From Paraspadella gotoi (lineage: Eukaryota > Animalia > Chaetognatha): 64,000 nt of DNA. The position numbers and the translations under genes are program-made. Below, one piece after another: positions 3,666-61,100 of this stretch. The notes under the pieces were generated by a model that was not told the DNA's origin, made no database searches, and saw only the letters and a program-made list of their open reading frames with translations. The stretch is taken from contig CM119269.1 in the NCBI GenBank assembly GCA_051294375.1, forward strand, positions 12,680,790-12,744,789, in the 5' to 3' direction. Each line of letters begins with the position of its first letter. Position 1 is the first letter of the stretch.

Positions 3666-3806
3666 TCTTCTCCCTTTATTTCGCAAAAACCTAAACTCTC
3701 TTTCTTGCTTTTTCATTCTCCTTCTCACCACAAAAATCCCATCCTAAGGTTTTATTCCTTTTCTTTCATAACCGTTTTAACTCTTGTTTTCGTAACCCAG
3801 TCCAAA

Positions 3807-3897
<91 letters not shown>

Positions 3898-4216
3898 CCT
3901 CGAGATTTTTCCTTCTCCCTTTGTTTATGTTTCTCAGCCGCCATCTTGCGTCGGCCGTCTCGACCGACGGACGCCATCTTGTCTCCGGCCAAAAAAAGGA
4001 AACGTGCGCGGCGCACTGCGCGCCATCATCGGTTTTAGGTTTTTCGCTTTTTTTTCTAATTCTTTTTAGGTCGAAGCGGGGAGTGCGGGGTGAGGGGTGA
4101 GGGGATGAGGCGAGTTGTGGTGTCTCATTCCTTCAAAAATCGCAGGCGAGCAATGTAATATATGAGAAATATATATATATAATATATGAGAAAGTCTTGA
4201 TTGAAAGCTTGCAGGG

Positions 4217-4345
4217 ACCTTCTATGTCATTATCTTGTAAGAGTGATGGAGGCCTTAAACCACCAAAGCCTGTCCAAAGTCAGGGGCAAGATAGCTTGTT
4301 TATTAAATGAATGGATAATTTTTATATTGGTTGTACCAATTTCAT
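4217..4345 (+). repeat. Dispersed ~130-bp repeat, copy 1 (ends in the ATTGGT-TGT-ACCAAT palindrome)
   Basis: Near-identical to the reverse complement of 26149-26277. Shorter fragments occur at 27183, 37428, 41148, 50782 and 61455. Confidence 0.85.
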
Positions 4346-4675
4346 AAAATTCAGCTCCTCGTATTTGAAAGGAACAAACACAACTTCACCAGAAAAAATT
4401 AAGGTTCTCAGTAACATTTAAAACAGTTAGGATCTAATCGAAAACAAAAAAATTAGCCTACATTTACGCGAATTATTTCTTTTATATTTCTTATTAATTG
4501 GTCATGAGAATCGCTATTATAATAATTATATAATAAAAGAAGAAAAAGAAATACAGAAAAGACAAAAAACTCTCTCAACACTTCGAGATAAAAATTCAAA
4601 AGAGAATCCGAATTCGGGATTTGAATGAGCGGAAAGAAAAAGCGAAGGGCGACGGCGCCGCAGATGTTTTGAAAA

Positions 4676-4718
<43 letters not shown>

Positions 4719-4726
4719 AGAGGGAT

Positions 4727-4772
<46 letters not shown>

Positions 4773-5536
4773 TATTTTATTTGCGTCACAATCGAACAGT
4801 AACTTTTTTTCATTAATCATCTCTTAATTTCATTCATTTAATTCAACGAAAGAGCGACTTATCCTTTCAAGAACGGCGCTAAGTTGCACCACCAACTTCT
4901 CCGCATTCATTGGCGGACGTAATTCCGCGGCGAGGCAACGATTTCCGGGTGCTCCTCGTTTTTCGGGAAACGATAATCGAGGATATAAACGGATTACGTC
5001 GGCTTTAAAAAGCTCAGGAAAGAAAAAAGGAGGAAAAAAGGAGGAAAGGAGTGGTAATAGAGGAAGGAGTGCAAATTGAAAAGAAATGGGATGGGCGAGA
5101 GAAAAACGGGCCAAGCCCAAATGCAAAGAGGAGAATAAGGAGAGAGAAAATGAGATGAGATGAGATGAGGACGCGGTCTTCAGCATCACTGCCGACTCAT
5201 CACCACCTTTTTGATATAAAAAATCTCATCTTTTGTTTAATTATTTTTTGCCCAAGAAAAAATTTGAGACAGGGTAGTAGAACTCTAGAGCAAAAGAAAA
5301 CCACCAGGTAAAATATTTTTGAGTTCTGTTCTTTAATGGGCAAAAAATCCCAAAAATAGGGGGAGGGAGGGGACGTGAAAAGGGAACGGACAGAAAAGAG
5401 CGTGTACAAAAACATTGCCTTCTCATTGACGAGAAAAACCCCGTCTGGACTCTGGCTCGCATTCGGACGGAAAGGAAGCCGGAAGAGGGAGAGTCTCTCT
5501 CTCTCTCTCTCTCTCCTCCCCATCATCCAATCTCTC

Positions 5537-5616
<80 letters not shown>

Positions 5617-5618
5617 AG

Positions 5619-6271
<653 letters not shown>

Positions 6272-6846
6272 GAAAGAGAGAAAAATGTGTGCGTTTCTTT
6301 TCCATTCTGTTTTTCTTCTTCCTCCCAATTTATCCCAATCTCTTTCTTCTCCTAAGAATCACGCAATTCTTGTCTGATCCCTTTTTCTCGATTCTCTCCT
6401 CGCCTCCTCGTCGCGTTGCACCAACACGTCGTTTTCTGCCTTTAGCCCCGTACCCCCCCCCTTTCCTCGTGTCCCCCTCGCCCTTTCCACTCTCAACGTG
6501 GAAAGAGGGTAAACGGGGTTGACGAGTCGTCCGCGTCACCTTTTCATCGTTGACTGAGTGATGGGCGAATAGAGGAGGGGGGCGGGGGTTGAGGTGGTGA
6601 GGGCCGACCGAATCCTTTTAAGGTGAAAGGTGGGGAACGAGCCGAAGCTGGAGTAGAAATAAGAGAGAGAGGGGGGGGGGTGTGAGGTCCTACCGGCGGA
6701 TCCCCGCTCGTTTCGTCGACCCGATGACGGCTTGACCCCGAAAAAGATGAATCTGAAAGAAGGCACGGAGAATGAAAGGGGGAAACGTGTGAGATGACCG
6801 GATCAAAACTTGACCTTTCAGGTGGAAAGAAAAATGGAGGCGAAAA

Positions 6847-6936
<90 letters not shown>

Positions 6937-7107
6937 GAAACTGTCCAGACAGCCGCTTATGATCGCATTTCATTCGGACAAAAACGGGCGCTGGCTATGA
7001 GTGGCTCTCCTTTCCATTATATTTTCTTGGCATCTTTTCCAGAACTTACGTCCGAAACGCCAAAGCCGACCGGCCTCGTTTTTGCGTTCACGCAGGAGAC
7101 GTATACG

Positions 7108-7203
<96 letters not shown>

Positions 7204-7974
7204 AAAGATGACGGAAGATTTACTCTCCGGGTTCCTTTTTTTTCTATTATCGCGGAATCGAAGATAGATTTCGTGTTTTTGCTTTTTATTTTGTCCTTCT
7301 TTTCCTTTATAAGTTTCTCTCTCTCTCTCTCTCTCTCTCTCTTTTGAGGAGAGTTTTCTCTCTCTCCCACTCTCCCAAAACATTATCTCCTGAAACGATG
7401 AAAACGTTATGGAAATCACAAATTGATATCGTCTTTAAAAATTCAACGAATATCTCTTAGTGTCTGTCTTGCTGTCTTCTATTTTTGCTCTTCACTCAGC
7501 AAAGGTGACATCTTCGTTCTTTCTATCTTCGTCTATACAGCATTTATTCCTCGCTTGCAGTCTTGCATTCTTACTCAATACTCATTAGCTTGCTTCTTCT
7601 TCTTACTTTTCTTTAACCCTTTTTGTTTTCTTTTTCCTCCCTTTCCTTTTCTCTGTCTCCCTCTTCTCCCTTAATTTCGCCCCATTTCCTGTTTTTCTTC
7701 CATCTTCAAAAGTCTTCTTCTTTGGCGAATCCATCCGTTTTCCTCGACGACGACGACGACGACGACCGACGTCTGCTCTTCATCTTCCTCCATTAAAAAG
7801 CCTTTTTCCTGCCGGCGGAGAGAGGACCGGGCGGCGGAGGGCGGCGAAACCGCCGCCACCGCCACGCCCGCCCGGTGTTGGCCCGCGGGTGGCCCCACTT
7901 AGCTCCTCCGCGACCCCGCAAGACCTTTTGACCCTCTGAAGGCAGAGGATGAAGAGGCGCCCACTCGTCACTCG

Positions 7975-8082
<108 letters not shown>

Positions 8083-8918
8083 AGAGAAGAGAGAGAGAGA
8101 GAAGAGAGAGANNNNNNNNNNNNNNNNNNNNNNNNNCTCTCTCCCCGAGTGACGAGTGGGCGCCTCTTCATCCTCTGCCTTCAGAGGGTCAAAAGGTCTT
8201 GCGGGGTCGCGGAGGAGCTAAGTGGGGCCACCCGCGGGCCAACACCGGGCGGGCGTGGCGGTGGCGGCGGTTTCGCCGCCCTCCGCCGCCCGGTCCTCTC
8301 TCCGCCGGCAGGAAAAGGCTTTTTAATGGAGGAAGATGAAGAGCAGACGTCGGTCGTCGTCGTCGTCGTCGTCGAGGAAAACGGATGGATTCGCCAAAGA
8401 AGAAGACTTTTGAAGATGGAAGAAAAACAGGAAATGGGGCGAAATTAAGGGAGAAGAGGGAGACAGAGAAAAGGAAAGGGAGGAAAAAGAAAACAAAAAG
8501 GGTTAAAGAAAAGTAAGAAGAAGAAGCAAGCTAATGAGTATTGAGTAAGAATGCAAGACTGCAAGCGAGGAATAAATGCTGTATAGACGAAGATAGAAAG
8601 AACGAAGATGTCACCTTTGCTGAGTGAAGAGCAAAAATAGAAGACAGCAAGACAGACACTAAGAGATATTCGTTGAATTTTTAAAGACGATATCAATTTG
8701 TGATTTCCATAACGTTTTCATCGTTTCAGGAGATAATGTTTTGGGAGAGTGGGAGAGAGAGAAAACTCTCCTCAAAAGAGAGAGAGAGAGAGAGAGAGAG
8801 AGAAACTTATAAAGGAAAAGAAGGACAAAATAAAAAGCAAAAACACGAAATCTATCTTCGATTCCGCGATAATAGAAAAAAAAGGAACCCGGAGAGTAAA
8901 TCTTCCGTCATCTTTTTA

Positions 8919-8986
<68 letters not shown>

Positions 8987-9158
8987 CGTATACGTCTCCT
9001 GCGTGAACGCAAAAACGAGGCGCGTCGGCTTTGGCGTTTCGGACGTAAGTTTCTGGAAAAGATGCCAAGAAAATATAATGGAAAGGAGAGCCACTCATAG
9101 CCAGCGCCCGTTTTTGTCCGAATGAAATGCGATCATAAGCGGCTGTCTGGACAGTTTC

Positions 9159-9252
<94 letters not shown>

Positions 9253-9979
9253 CGCCTCCATTTTTCTTTCCACCTGAAAGGTCAAGTTTTGATCCGGTCA
9301 TCTCACACGTTTTCCCCCTTTCATTCTCCGTGCCTTCTTTCAGATTCATCTTTTTCGGGGTCAAGCCGTCATCGGGTCGACGAAACGAGCGGGGATCCGC
9401 CGGTAGGACCTCACCCCCCACCCTCTCTCTCTTATTTCTACTCCAGCTTCGGCTCGTTCCCCACCTTTCACCTTAAAAGGATTCGGTCGGCCCTCACCAC
9501 CTCAACCCCCGCCCCCCTCCTCTATTCGCCCATCACTCAGTCAACGATGAAAAGGTGACGCGGACGACTCGTCAACCCCGTTTACCCTCTTTCCACGTTG
9601 AGAGTGGAAAGGGCGAGGGGGACACGAGGAAAGGGGGGGGGTACGGGGCTAAAGGCAGAAACGACGTGTTGGTGCAACGCGACGAGGAGGCGAGGAGAGA
9701 ATCGAGAAAAAGGGATCAGACAAGAATTGCGTGATTCTTAGGAGAAGAAAGAGATTGGGATAAATTGGGAGGAAGAAGAAAAACAGAATGGAAAAGAAAC
9801 GCACACAATTTTTCTCTCTTTCTTTCTCTCTCTCTGTCTCTCTCTCTCTCTCTCTCTCNNNNNNNNNNNNNNNNNNNNNNNNNNNNNNNNNNNNNNNNNN
9901 NNNNNNNNNNNNNNNNNNNNNNNNNNNNNNNNNNNNNNNNNNNNNNNNNNNNNNNNNNNNNNNNNNNNNNNNNNNNNNN

Positions 9980-12900
9980 CGGCCACGGTGCTGGTTTTGT
10001 CGGTCGGTTCGTCGGTGCGAGTGTCGGCGTCGTCGGCGACGGTTCGACCGTCGGCGTCGCCTCCTCCATCGACGCCGTCGGAGACCAACACTTTCGCCGC
10101 TGCAAAAGTTAAAAAGTTAACCATTAACCATTGACCACATTAACCATTAACAACATTAACCATTAACTACATTGACCATTAACCACTGGAGAAGAAAATA
10201 TTAAATTTCTAACCGCCGGTTCCCGGACGCGAGCCCGGTTTGTCGCCTCCCATCGACTGCGCCACCGTCCCTAATCCCAAGCGACGCTCCGTCGCGGGGG
10301 CGTGGCCGACTTTGCGGAACTCAAACAAAGTGCTGAGGGCGCCGTCGTTCTTTAAGGTGATGGTTCTGTCGAGGGGTTCGATGAGCGGATTAAGAGATGG
10401 TTTTTTTTTCTACAGATATTTAAATAGAAATACCGATAGAGTGTTTCGCCGACGACTGTGAGCCCGAAGTCAACTGCGTCGGTTTCTACACTGAGGTCGC
10501 ACTTCTTAGTCAGGCATCTGAAGAGAGAGAGAGAGAGGAGGAAGAGGGATGAAGAACGGCGAGAGAGATGAGAGAGAGAGAGAGAGTGAGAGAGATTGGA
10601 TGATGGGGAGATGAGATGATGGAACAATTCCTGAGGATTAATGACAATTCCATCTCTCAACCTGACTGGAATGGAGAATGCTCCCGTCCTGGAGAGAAAC
10701 TGAAGTTCCCCGAAGATGTCCTCGTTGATCTTTGGTTTGAAAGCGACGCTAAAGTCGCAGGTGAGGCCGGCGGACATTTGACCGGGTGGGGAGAAGCAGA
10801 CCTCCATGAAGTCTTGCAGGAGATCGGACATTCGTTCGTACTTGCAGTAGTTGATGCTGTTGGAGAAGAAGAGTGAGATCATCGGAGAAAAAAAAATCGA
10901 TCGGGGAAAAGTTTAATCAAAATGCCGTATACACTGACCTGTACGAAACATTGGTGAGGACGACTTTGCGTTGGTAAGTCTTTCCGACGTCGAAGTCTTT
11001 AAATTCAATGACGCTGGGACGCGAGTAAAAGGGGGCGGCACCCTCGAAGTTGGCGCCCGAGAGAAGAGGGGGACGGACGATGCCCGCGCGATGCTTGTTT
11101 AGAACTCTGGGTCAATTAGAGATTGTAAGAAAATGAGACAGCGATAAGACTCCATGTTGTAACAGAAGGTTTCTTGGTATTGAAGAAAAAGAACCAAAAT
11201 AATTTACATATTGTAGAAATTATTTACAAGCGCCATTAATTGGTGTTAAAATTATGCAATATTTTACAAAATATATTTTGGTTACAATATTATACAAATC
11301 CAGGTTGCTAACAGCGCGACCTCCTAAATTACAACAAACAAACAAACTTGTTAAGGATCTCGGCGTCCATCTTCGACTTGGCGAACTGCGCCCCCACGAC
11401 GTTGGGGTCGACGACGGCGGCGGCGCGGAGTTTCTTAAGACGCTTCCTCTCTCCGCCGCCAGTGTCCCAGAGTCCGGGGAATTCGGGTTCGGCCATCAAG
11501 TCCTTACGGGTCTGGGGATTTAAGATGGGGATCGGGGATTTAGATCGAAACACAGGCGGGGAATGAAGGATCCACTCACCGTCCCACCATCGTCCCCTTC
11601 CTCCTCTTTCTTAGCAGACGCTCTTTCCAAACCGCCAATGACCATCTCCGTTTCCTCCTTTTCTCCTTCTTCCTCTTCCTCTTCCCGCTCCTCGTCTCTT
11701 TCCTCCGTATCTCGACTCAACAGTCGAAATTCCTGGTTTGAAGAAAAAAAAATTAATTCAAAAATGGAATAGTATGGCAGCAGCGGGGTTGCCTGTGATG
11801 CCCATTGGGATGGGGCATCTCACTGTTGGCTTTGGGGGCTCCGACCCTCAGTGACGCATCCAGTCACTGGCGCGGTTACCCTAGGACGGTCTCGCTTTGC
11901 CAACGCAGAGGGAAGTCGTTAGGACTGTGGAGGGAAGACTACGCCTGGGATGGTGTGTTCCCCCTCTGAGCCAATGGATTTGGCTGAACAATGGTGGACG
12001 TGAGGCGGTGTCACATACCGCCACAATTGACTATTTAATATAAAACGAAAATTTGTTCATTTCGACGACGATTTTATTTTAAGAGAAAATAACAACTAAT
12101 TTTCAAACAACGAAAAAAAATGATTTGCACATAATCATACTAAATCTATATCTTTTCAATTAATACCTTGACGGTTCTTGCCATCGCCAGCGCCTCTTCC
12201 TCGTCAACATCCTCTTCCTCTTCCTCCTCCTTGAGTCTCCTCCTAATCTCCGTCTCCACCGCCTTGGGCAGACGGGTCCTCCTCTTCTCCTCCCTCTCCG
12301 CCGCCTTCTCCCTCTCCCTCTTCTTGTCCGGAGGAAACAACCAGGGATACTTCCTCCTCCTCCTCTCCATCGCCGCTTCCTCCTCCATGAGGGCGTGGGT
12401 GATGCCGATCTGTTTGACGCGCTGCTCGCCCTCGAACTCGAGGCGGCGTCGTTCGCGTCGCTCGGCGTCGCGGCGGCGGAGGATTTCCAGATCCGGATTG
12501 CCGCCTGAAGGAGGGGATGGGCGTTTCTTGAAAAGAGTTCTTCCAGTCTTCCTTCTTTCTCACCCTTCATTTCTCCCATCCTTCTCTTCTTTCGTCCTTC
12601 CTTTAATTTCTCAATACTTCCTTCCTTTTTCTTCTCCTTTACTTTCTTCCTTTCCCTTCTCCCATCCTCCCTTCCTTTCTTCCTTTTCTCCCATCCTCTC
12701 TTCCCATCCATACCTTGAGCGGCGATCTTAATCTTCTCTTCTTCCTCCGCCTTCTTGGCCTTCTCGTCCAAATGCCTCCTCTTATCGTTGAGCGCTTTGA
12801 GGTTGGATCGGTTCTGGTCCAAGTCCTTCTTCAACTTCAACAGCGACGTCATCTTGGCCTCGTGGTCGGCGTGACGGGCCTCCGCCGCGGACTCCTAAAT

Positions 12901-15345: not shown

Positions 15346-26539
<11,194 letters not shown>

Positions 26540-58138: not shown

Positions 58139-61100
58139 TCACATCTTGGCCACGACCTCCGCCAACACCTGCGAGTAATTGGTCTCTTCCCTCAGAAGCG
58201 GCAGAGTCACCAACTTGTCGCCCTCCGTCAAACACGTGGTCGACAAGGTCGGGGGCGTGGCTTCCTTGAAGGCGACGCCGAAGGATCGTCCGTCGAGATT
58301 GAGCGAAGGAAGAAGACCCTCGACCACGTTGTCCACGAGGTAAGGATCCTCGTCGATGAGCGCCTTCGTCGTCGTCGTTGACGAAGACGACGACGCCGTC
58401 TTTCGAGGACGCCCTCGCTTCGGCAGCGCCGATGACGCCGTATGTTTCTCCGGCGCCACGACGTCGAAGAGTCGGAGCAGTAGCTCTGGGTTGGACTCTT
58501 TCAACTCCACGGATGTGCGATGGCGACATGGCTCGTCCGAAGGGTCCACCTCCGCTGAAGAAAAAGACCTCGTCAAATATAATCGTGAAATATAAACCCT
58601 TGTGGCGGTATAGTCACACCGCCTCACGTCCACCATCCGTCAGCCAAATCCATTGGCTCAGAGGGGGAACACACCATCCCAGGCATAGTGTTCCATCCAC
58701 AATCCTAACGACTTCCCTCTGCGTTGGCAAAGCGAGACCGTCCTAGGGTAACCGCGCCAGTGACTGGAGGCGTCACTGAGGGTCGGAAGCCCCCAAAGCC
58801 AACAGTGAGATGCCCCATCCCAATGGGCATCACAGGCAACCCGGCTGTTGCCATACCCTCCCCCTAAAACCCTATCCCTGTTTTCTATCCACCTTACCTT
58901 CCTCGCCCGACCCCCACAGCGGAGGTAAGGGCCTCGAATCGTGATGAAGACTCGCGGGTGAGATTTTATGAGGAACGTTGGGCTGTTGCCAGAAAGAGAC
59001 GGGTAAGGCGCGCATCCGCATCGGAAGCGGCGCGTGTTTGGGGTGAAGATGATGCCGCGACTTGGGCACGCTCGTCGACGACGCCGGCGACAATGCCGAT
59101 AAAGAGGCGGCGACGATTTCCGGCGTCGATTCGTGACTCAAAGCCGGCTTTTTTGGCGCCGTCTCGGCTTCGCTCATGGGTGTTGTGGTTAAACGTTCGG
59201 TCGAGGAGGCTGTGGCGTTGCTGGGGACGGATTCGGCGGCGGCGGCGGAGGAGGCGGGGACGTCTCGTCTGATCGCGTAGGTTTTAACTCCGTCTTTGGA
59301 ATTGGTGAGGAAGAGGGAAGAGGAGGAGGAGGAGGATGAGGAGGAGGAAGAGTTGGATTGACGATTGATTTTGGGTCTGGACACATTGATTCTCGGCTGA
59401 GGATTTTGGGTCGAAGCTTGACAGGCGAACGCCTTGGAGAAGGAGCGAAGGGGCGGCTGGGCGTGGCCGAGGAACGTCGACGCGGCGCGGACGGGCGACG
59501 CGGCGCCGACGCTGCTGCTGCCGGTGCCGAACGAAGAGACGCTGACGCCGCTGGAGGAGGAAGGGGAGGGTGGGCTGCCGGTGTAGCAGTGGTCGACGTG
59601 GAGAAAAATCTGTGGGCAAGTGTGGGGAGAGGAGTGAGTGGTTAGTTTAGTGGAGTCAGGAGTGGGATATACAGTTGAGGGTTGGGTGAAGAATCAAGTT
59701 ATGAATAAAGAATTCAAAAAGATATTTAAAGAATTCATTTTCATGTGATTGAAAGATTGTATATATCTCGTTTTAGTTAATTTACTAAATTAGATTATGA
59801 AAAACGCTAAACAATCGATATTAGGAAGATAAGGTCGGTTAAAGGTCAGTCACCTGACCTTGGTTAAGGGTCGGTTATGACTTGGTTAAGATCAGGTACC
59901 TTGTTGCTGTTGTCGTTGTTGTCGCTGTAATTATATTGTGAAATATTAAGCTTAATTCCTTATCTAATTATGTTGTTTTCTGGAAATAGAGAAGCATTTA
60001 AGGGGACCCAGTGATAAAAATGATATCATAAGCTTAAGGGTCTATCATCAAAGGAATTTGAAATGGTGATAGTCATTAATTTTTCTTTGACGGAAAGTGG
60101 CAAAAAAAATTCCTATCTCTTAATGTAGCGGAAACAAAAATTTTATAATTATGAAAAAAAAATTTAGTTGACCCTACCTAAATATTTATATAATCCATTA
60201 TTTTATTTTTGCATTAGAAAGTATTTTTTACTAAATTCCAATTTTTTATTTTTTACTGTACAAAGCTATAATTTTAGGTTAAGCCTATTGAGCAAAGGCT
60301 TTACAAGACTAATATTTTTATATTTTTATATTTACTTAAAGCAGACAAATCAAAACCTAAATTCTATTCTTACAGAAACAAAACTGTAATAATTTATTAA
60401 TTTAATATTCATATTCATCCACTTAAATGTATAATTAAACTATATTGATTCCTAATTATAACAATTAAAAATTTAGCAAAAGTACAGAATCTTTTCTCTT
60501 CTTTTTATATTTATATTACTTCAAAGAGTTTATTTTCATCTAATTAACAGAATCATTTGAAAAAAAAAGTTTTAAATAAATCAGTCGATACTTAAATTTG
60601 ATTCATTCCTAGTTTTTTTTCTTATAAATTTTTGTAATAAAAGCTGAAAATCTTTTTAAAATTAGATCTTACCCTTTTTGGAAAAAAAAAATTTTAAACT
60701 TGAAAAAGATTTTCTTCTTACCGATTTTTTAAAGAAAATTAAGCTCGCTGTTTTTATCGAATTTTTTAACTACTTCCCAAATGATTAATAGAAGAAAAAA
60801 ACTTATATGATCAGAACCAGCTTAAGTTAAAGGGTCAAACGTTATGTTTTCAGCTTTTTACCCCCCCTGTTCACTTGTCCCCTTAAGTCCTATTGCCTGA
60901 TAAAAAGGATTTCTCTCATGGATTTCTAATAGTACAATTAGGAAAGACATATTAACACAATCGACTCAACCACCAAAACATTCCGCAATCACCCCCACCC
61001 CCTCCCGCACCCTCTTCCGCCACGCCCACCACTTCGCACGCCCACCCTTCTGCCACGCCCACCCCTTTCCTCCCGGACTTCCGGGTCTCGACGCTTCTTC

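What the first reader, a model, noticed from the sequence alone, without database searches (positions are those of the whole stretch)
58723..58803. Apparently intact type-P5 twister self-cleaving ribozyme hidden in an intron
Seen: 5'-GTTGGC AAA GCGA GA CCGT CC TAG GG T AA CCGC GC CAGTGAC TGGAGGC GTCACTG AGGG TCGG AAGC CCCC AAA GCCAAC-3'. Established: a twister core runs U^A-A, P2, GC (pseudoknot T2), optional P3, P4 enclosing U-NNN-AAGC, P2', the conserved GA (general-base G), a strand pairing with the L4 NNN (pseudoknot T1), then P1. All of these are present in the circularly permuted order whose ends lie in P5 (GTTGGC/GCCAAC). T1 is CGG/CCG instead of the more familiar CCC/GGG or CCU/AGG, so the pairing holds despite a different sequence, which argues against chance. 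Weak points: P1 is only a 2-bp hairpin, and P2 and P4 each end in an A-C mismatch. Inference: an active ribozyme cleaving between 58749 and 58750.
Basis: partly seen in the sequence, partly recalled or inferred. Interest (0 to 1): 0.92.

Follow-up and report, generated by a model that had tools for sequence, protein, structure and literature searches.

The report
Twister ribozyme inside animal LTR repeat
A predicted self-cutting "twister" RNA sits in the middle of a 255-base repeat scattered in very many copies through an invertebrate genome; the repeat is likely the end piece (LTR) of a jumping gene that would copy itself through circular RNA, a design so far described in plants and with a different ribozyme.

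Summary
The motif is real: every conserved twister nucleotide and both pseudoknots are present in P5 order, far beyond chance, although Rfam gives no significant hit. It is not a host-gene device. It lies antisense to a confirmed intron and is the middle of a 255-bp dispersed repeat (58601-58855), with a second copy at 11773-12025 and, by contig depth, probably thousands in the genome. The repeat has fixed TG...TA ends and 4-bp flanking duplications (one exact, one 3 of 4). In one contig from another run it is followed, after 2 nt, by a primer-binding-site-like complement of a mature tRNA 3' end. Common variants spare the ribozyme core. Best reading: solo LTRs of a non-autonomous LTR retroelement whose twister would cut out a unit RNA that circularises, as plant hammerhead retrozymes do. 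Not shown: cleavage, circles, paired LTRs, polypurine tract, helper element. Six literature searches found no twister in an LTR and no LTR retrozyme in animals. The scan holds no look-alike DNA.

The parts
58601..58855 (+). 255-bp dispersed repeat, copy 1 (likely solo LTR); ends TGTGGC...GCCATA
   Evidence: BLAST to copy 2, 95% over 255 nt; contig depth step and loose ends at 58600/58601 and 58854-58856
58597..58600 (+). Left 4-bp flank CCCT (candidate target-site duplication)
58856..58859 (+). Right 4-bp flank CCCT (exact repeat of the left flank)
58723..58803 (+). Twister ribozyme motif, P5 order, with P3 hairpin and closed P5 stem
   Evidence: twister-P1 partial match E=0.66
58749..58750 (+). 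Predicted cleavage site U^A (position 149/150 of the repeat)
   Evidence: inferred from alignment to Rfam-confirmed twisters; not tested
58736..58740 (+). Conserved G-A and the T1 strand CCG
58783..58790 (+). L4 loop U-CGG-AAGC carrying both pseudoknot partners
58758..58778 (+). P3 hairpin; its loop (58765-58771) holds the only common variants inside the ribozyme
58555..58897 (-). Host intron (343 nt, GT..AG) that holds copy 1 in antisense
   Evidence: phase-consistent splice sites; X9 contig 18 joins 58898 to 58554 (table 8)
58898..59693 (-). Upstream exon (open frame) of the host gene, with a TEAD-interacting omega-loop motif (FAM181/PERCC1-like, family names recalled)
   Evidence: Pfam PF15238 E=6e-6
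58142..58554 (-). Downstream exon of the host gene, weak AT-hook match
11773..12025 (-). Repeat copy 2 (253 bp), sense in another intron; lacks one A of the L4 loop; flanks CAAT/CTAT
11733..12166 (-). Host intron (434 nt, GT..AG) that holds copy 2 in sense
   Evidence: X9 joint skips 434, depth 179; ends checked

Best explanation
The motif is a predicted twister ribozyme carried in the middle of a 255-bp high-copy repeat that is likely the solo long terminal repeat (LTR) of a non-coding LTR retroelement, which would work like a plant retrozyme with a twister in place of the hammerhead. Shown: the twister anatomy, the repeat, its fixed ends, many insertion sites, antisense position in this intron. 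Inferred: a full element (LTR-PBS-internal region-PPT-LTR) is transcribed; the twister cuts at U149/A150 of each LTR; the released unit RNA has its two ends held together by P5, P2 and T1 and is ligated to a circle; a helper reverse transcriptase primes on a tRNA (probably Trp) at the PBS, reads through the junction and rebuilds a whole LTR; a Gypsy-type integrase inserts it with a 4-bp duplication. Most copies are lone LTRs, made directly from the circle or by LTR-LTR recombination. The copy at 58.7 kb is a passenger that cannot cut its host pre-mRNA.
For: Twister anatomy complete and far above chance. Second copy with the same two ends. Summed contig depth 1.2-1.6 million on the repeat against 85-101 on its flanks in X6; at least 252 contigs leave the right end and 85 the left end into unrelated AT-rich DNA; 3,700-5,700-fold at the L4 loop in X2, X7, X8. 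4-bp flank repeats, 4 of 4 and 3 of 4; plurality flank letters ATAT, ATAC or GTAT in most listed loose-end rows on both sides. One X10 contig continues past the right end with 2 nt and then the complement of a tRNA 3' end including CCA: 10 nt, a short gap, then 13 nt of the T-arm; both blocks are identical to an ARAGORN tRNA-Trp (L120). A 10-nt PBS plus T-arm boxes is known from Ty1 (PMC4974528, passages). Variants at 3% or more in X6: 0 of 74 core positions, 2 of 7 P3-loop positions, 15 of 110 upstream positions (p=5e-4); a diverged version in X11 has its fixed differences upstream and none fixed in the core. The cut site lies mid-element, so plain 5' processing cannot explain copies that keep 149 nt upstream. 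Plant retrozymes show ribozyme-in-LTR, 4-bp TSD, PBS and solo LTRs (PMC4918200, passages).
Against: No cleavage data. No Rfam hit at or near gathering score. The nested twister fold is 11 kcal/mol above the predicted minimum and P1 and P4 have pairing probability near 0 without pseudoknots. No compensatory changes are visible in the family. The 40 nt downstream of the ribozyme are as invariant as the core (0 of 40), so conservation is not ribozyme-specific. The PBS rests on one contig of depth 6 from a run labelled as another organism, of which 30 of 85 loose letters were printed; insertion beside a tRNA-derived sequence is not excluded; 49 of the 50 tRNA matches were Arg, not Trp. The right end is TA, not the canonical CA (TG..TA is a listed non-canonical type, bioRxiv 10.1101/137141 passages, in plants). 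No paired LTR, PPT, internal region, helper element or circle junction was seen. TSDs come from 2 copies and no empty site was found. A solo fraction this high is unusual for TRIMs (PMC10886601 passages give 2 to 4 LTRs per internal part).
Confidence: 0.55

Rival explanations
1. The repeat is the LTR of an autonomous Gypsy-type retrotransposon, and the twister processes or regulates its coding RNA.
For: Same LTR, TSD and PBS evidence; the internal region was not seen, so coding capacity is open; tRNA-Trp priming occurs in animal Gypsy elements (PMC10886601 section 16).
Against: Cuts in both LTRs would remove cap, tail and the R repeat from an mRNA that must be translated (inference). No long coding frame adjoins either copy, and no reverse-transcriptase frame was recognised by eye among the window's frames of 170 aa or more (not searched by profile).
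Confidence: 0.15
2. The repeat is an LTR-type element but the twister fold is a relic or is misfolded and does not cut.
For: No Rfam hit; P1 only 2 bp; two A.C mismatches; competing fold 11 kcal/mol lower; the X10 contig runs uncut across the site.
Against: All catalytic and pseudoknot positions are intact and invariant at the 1% level in three DNA runs (one RNA-like run shows 1.3% and 1.5% rows beside copy 2's gap); about 94% of natural twister candidates tested cut, and P1, P2 and most P4 defects were tolerated (PMC11662667 abstract, section 32). An uncut contig is expected from precursors, circles or DNA.
Confidence: 0.12
3. The repeat is a MITE-like DNA transposon with very short inverted ends that happens to carry a twister.
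For: Fixed ends, short imperfect inverted termini (5 of 8), a 6-bp hairpin just inside each end, AT-rich targets, very high copy number, nearly all copies stand alone.
Against: The tRNA-complementary stretch 2 nt past the end; a DNA transposon has no use for an invariant ribozyme; the inverted ends are too short for most MITEs (recalled).
Confidence: 0.1
4. It is a SINE, an RTE-type 5' end or a Penelope-type repeat in which the ribozyme makes the 5' end of the RNA.
For: This is the only role published for twisters in mobile elements (PMC8501958 abstract and introduction; PMC7761336 passages); animal retrozymes derive from Penelope repeats (bioRxiv 10.64898/2026.07.22.740005, abstract).
Against: The cut site is 149 nt inside the element; both ends are fixed; no tail, no tandem array and no long TSD; no head-to-tail joint among the 15 of 56 and 15 of 33 joints listed.
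Confidence: 0.05
5. It is a host-gene regulatory ribozyme that cuts the intron of this gene.
For: It lies inside a confirmed intron.
Against: It is antisense to the spliced RNA and is one of very many near-identical copies.
Confidence: 0.03

Closest known systems
Plant LTR retrozymes (Cervera et al. 2016, PMC4918200, passages read)
   Same: Self-cleaving ribozyme inside a 250-400 bp LTR-like repeat, 4-bp TSD, PBS after the LTR, solo LTRs.
   Different: Twister instead of type III hammerhead; animal host; PBS fits tRNA-Trp or Arg, not Met; solo copies appear to dominate by far; paired LTRs, PPT and circles not shown here.
Twister ribozymes, type P5 (Rfam RF02684) and P1 (RF03160)
   Same: All conserved nucleotides, both pseudoknots and the P5 strand order; T1 CGG/CCG as in phage twister L167.
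   Different: P1 2 bp against 6-9 bp in the nine cleanly parsed phage P5 loci; P3 and a closed P5 both present; A.C at the first P2 pair; scores below Rfam cut-offs.
Twister variants of Schistosoma Perere-3 (RTE) elements (PMC8501958, abstract and introduction read)
   Same: Twister as part of a high-copy animal retroelement.
   Different: Those sit at the 5' end of a non-LTR element beside the TSD; this one is mid-element in a repeat with two fixed ends.
Animal TRIMs: Helenus (PMC10886601, passages and section 16) and taeniid ta-TRIM (PMC4558846, passages)
   Same: Short non-coding LTR elements, 4-bp TSD, PBS for a tRNA 3' end (Trp among them), solo LTRs, Gypsy helpers.
   Different: No ribozyme reported in their LTRs (the word is absent from PMC4558846 and only in a reference of PMC10886601); tRNA-like boxes here are only weak look-alikes.
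Animal non-LTR retrozymes (PMC7229834, passages)
   Same: Small structured repeat of 150-450 bp with a ribozyme, thousands of copies.
   Different: Those are tandem arrays with type I hammerheads, lack LTR, PBS and PPT, and have long TSDs.

Membership tests
Twister ribozyme class | U^A-A step at the cut site and G-A on the opposite side of L1 | tested here: met
   U58749 A58750 A58751; G58736 A58737
Twister ribozyme class | Pseudoknot T1 (3 bp) between L4 and the strand after GA | tested here: met
   C-G, C-G, G-C; same triplets in L167
Twister ribozyme class | Pseudoknot T2 (GC with GC of L4) and L4 U-NNN-AAGC on P4 | tested here: met
   P4 3 of 3
Twister ribozyme class | Helices P1 and P2 | tested here: met
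   P2 3 of 4, P1 2 bp; such defects were tolerated in PMC11662667 section 32
Twister ribozyme class | Covariation of the helices among homologues | tested here: inconclusive
   Core invariant in the family, no compensatory pairs visible
Twister ribozyme class | Site-specific self-cleavage | not testable with these tools
   needs a bench assay
Rfam Twister-P5 (RF02684) / twister-P1 (RF03160) as database families | Score at or above the gathering cut-off | tested here: not met
   No P5 hit; P1 15.2 bits against 67.2. Not filed as an Rfam member.
Plant LTR retrozymes | Type III hammerhead in the LTR | tested here: not met
   The motif is a twister; no hammerhead hit. Works-like claim only.
LTR retroelements (retrozyme, TRIM, Gypsy) | Fixed termini with short inverted ends, TG...CA | tested here: inconclusive
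   Fixed ends and 5' TG met; 3' end is TA
LTR retroelements (retrozyme, TRIM, Gypsy) | 4-6 bp target-site duplication | tested here: met
   4 of 4 and 3 of 4 in the 2 copies held; no empty site found
LTR retroelements (retrozyme, TRIM, Gypsy) | Primer-binding site 1-3 nt after the LTR | tested here: met
   One contig only (X10); matches tRNA 3' halves
LTR retroelements (retrozyme, TRIM, Gypsy) | Two LTRs around an interior ending in a polypurine tract | not testable with these tools
   No genome held; the 2 window copies are inverted and 46 kb apart
Plant LTR retrozymes | Circular RNA joined at the cut site | not testable with these tools
   Only contigs available; no raw RNA reads
Helenus TRIMs | tRNA-derived A and B boxes in the LTR | tested here: inconclusive
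   One A/B look-alike with a mismatch each; 54 of 2000 shuffles do as well; ARAGORN and Rfam find no tRNA
Animal non-LTR retrozymes | Head-to-tail arrays with type I hammerhead | tested here: not met
   Dispersed single copies; no such joint among those listed
RTE 5' twister variants | Cut site at the element's 5' end beside the TSD | tested here: not met
   Cut site 149 nt inside

The most novel reading that the evidence does not exclude
This is an animal LTR retrozyme built on a twister ribozyme: a tRNA-primed, integrase-inserted, non-coding retroelement that replicates through a self-cut circular RNA and has spread mostly as thousands of lone LTRs made straight from the circle. It would be the first LTR retrozyme outside plants and the first with a non-hammerhead ribozyme, so an independent invention of the same life cycle.
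Probability: 0.5. Interest if true: 0.8.

Novelty: new variant of a known kind. Interest (0 to 1): 0.66.

Why it matters
Twisters are known from over a thousand organisms but almost none has a biological role; the one published role is 5' processing of RTE retrotransposons. A twister inside an LTR would be a second role, and would show that the circular-RNA route of LTR retrozymes is not special to plants or hammerheads. The family escapes Rfam, so similar elements may be widely missed. With thousands of young intronic copies, it also gives a direct test of whether genomes select against self-cutting RNA in the sense strand of introns.

Tried and rejected
Rfam scans of the window and of three sub-regions gave no significant hit. 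No whole genome is held. No family copy was found in viral contigs or metagenome contigs (BLAST of the repeat against all 66 loci then held); those matches served as a null instead. No RNA holder is on record; X9 and X10 are RNA by guess only, and contig depth in X9 (higher over the 3' part of the repeat) cannot show level, strand or cut site, so it is not used. No empty-site allele of copy 2 in X2, X7, X8; whether copy 2's missing A is real or an assembly error could not be told. The PBS-like stretch is absent from the window and its one viral match is not a tRNA. Pol III boxes: weak, not claimed. A TA-type (Tc1/mariner) or 5-bp TSD reading does not fit copy 1. No custom covariance model was built: MAFFT misaligned the phage set, and a gap-free subset would only have repeated Rfam's model. 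The host phylum was not resolved: CNOT9 is 75-84% identical to many animals alike and the seryl-tRNA ligase piece only 38-47% to anything. The twister discovery paper is not held. One search returned only general transposon papers.

Full report
1. Observation. The 81 letters are at 58723-58803 on the plus strand. P1 is 2 bp; by the register of Rfam-confirmed P5 twisters it is U58741.G58748 and C58742-G58747.

2. Chance. A P5 descriptor that asks nothing of P3 or P5 hits once in the window, here, and 2 times in 1.48 Gb of order-2 Markov sequence trained on the element, its GC-rich block and the window; neither null hit has a 7-bp P3 or a 6-bp P5. Of 49 database matches to the sequence-only pattern, 2 had P2 and P4 and 0 had P1, P2 and P4. 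Against this, Rfam gives no hit at gathering score, no twister hit in 2.1 kb and only a 15.2-bit, E=0.66 twister-P1 match over 58755-58798. The miss has a plain cause: the P5 model expects a P1 of about 8 bp, no P3 and CCC/GGG in T1 (14 of 17 phage loci with that T1 pattern scored above its cut-off). A phage twister-P1 with the same CGG/CCG pseudoknot exists and itself falls below the cut-off (L167, 1 of 4 loci). Folding programs do not model pseudoknots; the nested twister fold is -20.5 against -31.5 kcal/mol for the predicted minimum. In a test of about 2,600 natural twisters, about 94% cut, and P1, P2 and most P4 defects were tolerated (PMC11662667, abstract and sections 32, 33, 35 read; PMC5113685, part 1 of 2 read). 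Activity here is likely but untested.

3. Setting. The host is an invertebrate animal of unresolved phylum. The motif lies in a 343-nt intron, 58555-58897, of a minus-strand gene with a TEAD-interacting motif; a contig of run X9 joins the two exons exactly. The motif is on the plus strand, so it is antisense to the host RNA and cannot cut it.

4. The repeat. A second copy, 95% identical over 255 nt with the same two ends, lies at 11773-12025 on the minus strand, sense in another confirmed intron, and lacks one A of L4. Laying run contigs on copy 1 gave summed depth of 1.2-1.6 million on 58601-58855 against 85-101 on the flanks in X6, with 10,949 contigs laid; 85 contigs leave the left end and 252 the right end into unrelated AT-rich DNA (listed rows only). 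At the L4 loop the ratio was 3,700-5,700 in X2, X7 and X8. The tool warns that summed depth is no copy number, so I read this only as hundreds of sites shown and probably thousands. The ends are TGTGGC and GCCATA. Flanks repeat 4 letters: CCCT/CCCT and CAAT/CTAT. Plurality flank letters next to both ends are ATAT, ATAC or GTAT in most listed rows, with exceptions such as ATTG, ATAG and CTGC, which hints at a symmetric 4-bp target; overall agreement is only 0.42-0.48.

5. Selection. Variants at 3% or more in X6 fall on 15 of 110 positions upstream of the ribozyme, 2 of 7 in the P3 loop and 0 of 74 in the core (p=5e-4; 12 nt at each end left out because the tool does not list them reliably). At 1% in three more DNA runs the ribozyme still varies only in that loop. 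The 40 nt downstream are also invariant, so this shows a conserved 3' half and not the ribozyme alone. No covariation is visible.

6. Primer-binding site. The single contig laid from run X10 matches 58665-58855 with 3 differences and goes on for 85 letters, 30 of them printed. After 2 nt comes the complement of a tRNA 3' end with its CCA: 10 nt, then 5 nt where a tRNA has 8, then 13 nt of the T-arm. A pattern drawn from it found 96 stretches in prokaryote contigs, of which 80 were held; 50 of the 80 overlap an ARAGORN tRNA (49 Arg, 1 Trp), and the Trp gene (L120) is identical in both blocks. The pattern was designed from the query, so the hits show what it resembles and are not a significance test. 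Position, polarity and CCA are those of an LTR primer-binding site; a 10-nt PBS with extra T-arm pairing is known from Ty1 (PMC4974528, passages). This is one contig of depth 6 from a run with another organism label.

7. Mechanism. Shown: twister anatomy, fixed-end repeat, many sites, antisense position here. Supported by little data: TSD (2 copies), PBS (1 contig). Inferred: a cut in each LTR frees a unit RNA with no R repeat, which must circularise to be copied; the P5 order leaves both ends able to re-pair through P5, P2 and T1; reverse transcription from the PBS through the junction rebuilds an LTR; a Gypsy-type integrase inserts it. The plant model already proposes solo-LTR cDNAs from circles (PMC4918200, passages), which would explain why nearly all copies stand alone. 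I put this at 0.55; an autonomous LTR element 0.15; an inactive fold 0.12; a MITE 0.10; non-LTR 5' processing 0.05; host regulation 0.03.

8. Known relatives and novelty. It belongs to the twister class by anatomy but is not an Rfam member by score. It works like a plant LTR retrozyme but is not a member as defined, since the ribozyme is not a hammerhead. Animal retrozymes in print lack LTR, PBS and PPT (PMC7229834, passages; bioRxiv 10.64898/2026.07.22.740005, abstract). Twisters in mobile elements are reported at RTE 5' ends (PMC8501958, abstract and introduction; PMC7761336, passages) and in viroid-like circles (bioRxiv 10.1101/2022.07.19.500677, passages). A review lists no twister in an LTR in the passages seen (PMC6765202). 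Searches listed no paper whose title or abstract opening describes a twister in an LTR or an LTR retrozyme in animals. The library lacks most subscription papers; Repbase and Dfam were not available; I read no supplements, and the candidate tables of PMC11662667 could list this organism. The scan's own notes hold no look-alike DNA and one hammerhead repeat in another genome, which I did not test.

9. Verdict. Observation confirmed; interpretation partly supported. The ribozyme alone is an ordinary new member of a widespread class. Its carrier is the finding: likely a twister-bearing LTR retroelement in an animal. Novelty: new variant of a known kind. Interest 0.66.

Noticed in passing
window 11773-12025 (-): The copy that lies sense in an intron lacks one A of the conserved L4 loop, which about 99% of bridging contig depth carries; the antisense copy is intact. 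This fits selection against cutting host pre-mRNA, but it is one case and may be an assembly error.
   Followed up: partly
window 58604-58623 and 58835-58852: Each end of the repeat has the same layout in mirror image: 3 nt, then a 6-bp hairpin starting GGC with a 6-8 nt loop.
   Followed up: no
window 58642-58658, 58673-58686, 58810-58832: Three hairpin loops of the repeat share an ATCC(C)A-like word, a possible protein-binding or packaging signal.
   Followed up: no
window 58654-58698: A-box and B-box look-alikes 36 nt apart, one mismatch each; 54 of 2000 shuffles do as well.
   Followed up: partly
window about 5600-10540: A 5-kb near-perfect fold-back centred on an N gap at 8112-8136, likely an amplification or assembly artefact.
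   Followed up: no
window 4209-4346, 26148-26285, 27182, 37427, 50781, 61453: A second small repeat family whose copies share a 25-nt word with a 5-bp hairpin between GAAA and UA, like hammerhead stem III but with no CUGANGA seen upstream by eye.
   Followed up: partly
run X11 laid on window 58601-58855: A biofilm metagenome holds a diverged version of the repeat with fixed differences upstream of the ribozyme and none fixed in its core, so a related organism probably carries the family (6 low-depth contigs listed).
   Followed up: no
L167:57-125 (-): Phage twister-P1 with the CGG/CCG pseudoknot, E=2.8e-9 but 48.3 bits, below Rfam's 67.2 cut-off: the cut-off misses real T1 variants.
   Followed up: partly
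L120: A tRNA-Trp(CCA) on a 4.5-kb contig of a bacterial MAG that matches the PBS-like blocks; possibly a eukaryotic contaminant.
   Followed up: no
window 58142-59693 (-): The host gene joins a TEAD-interacting omega-loop motif and an AT-hook-like word in one protein.
   Followed up: no
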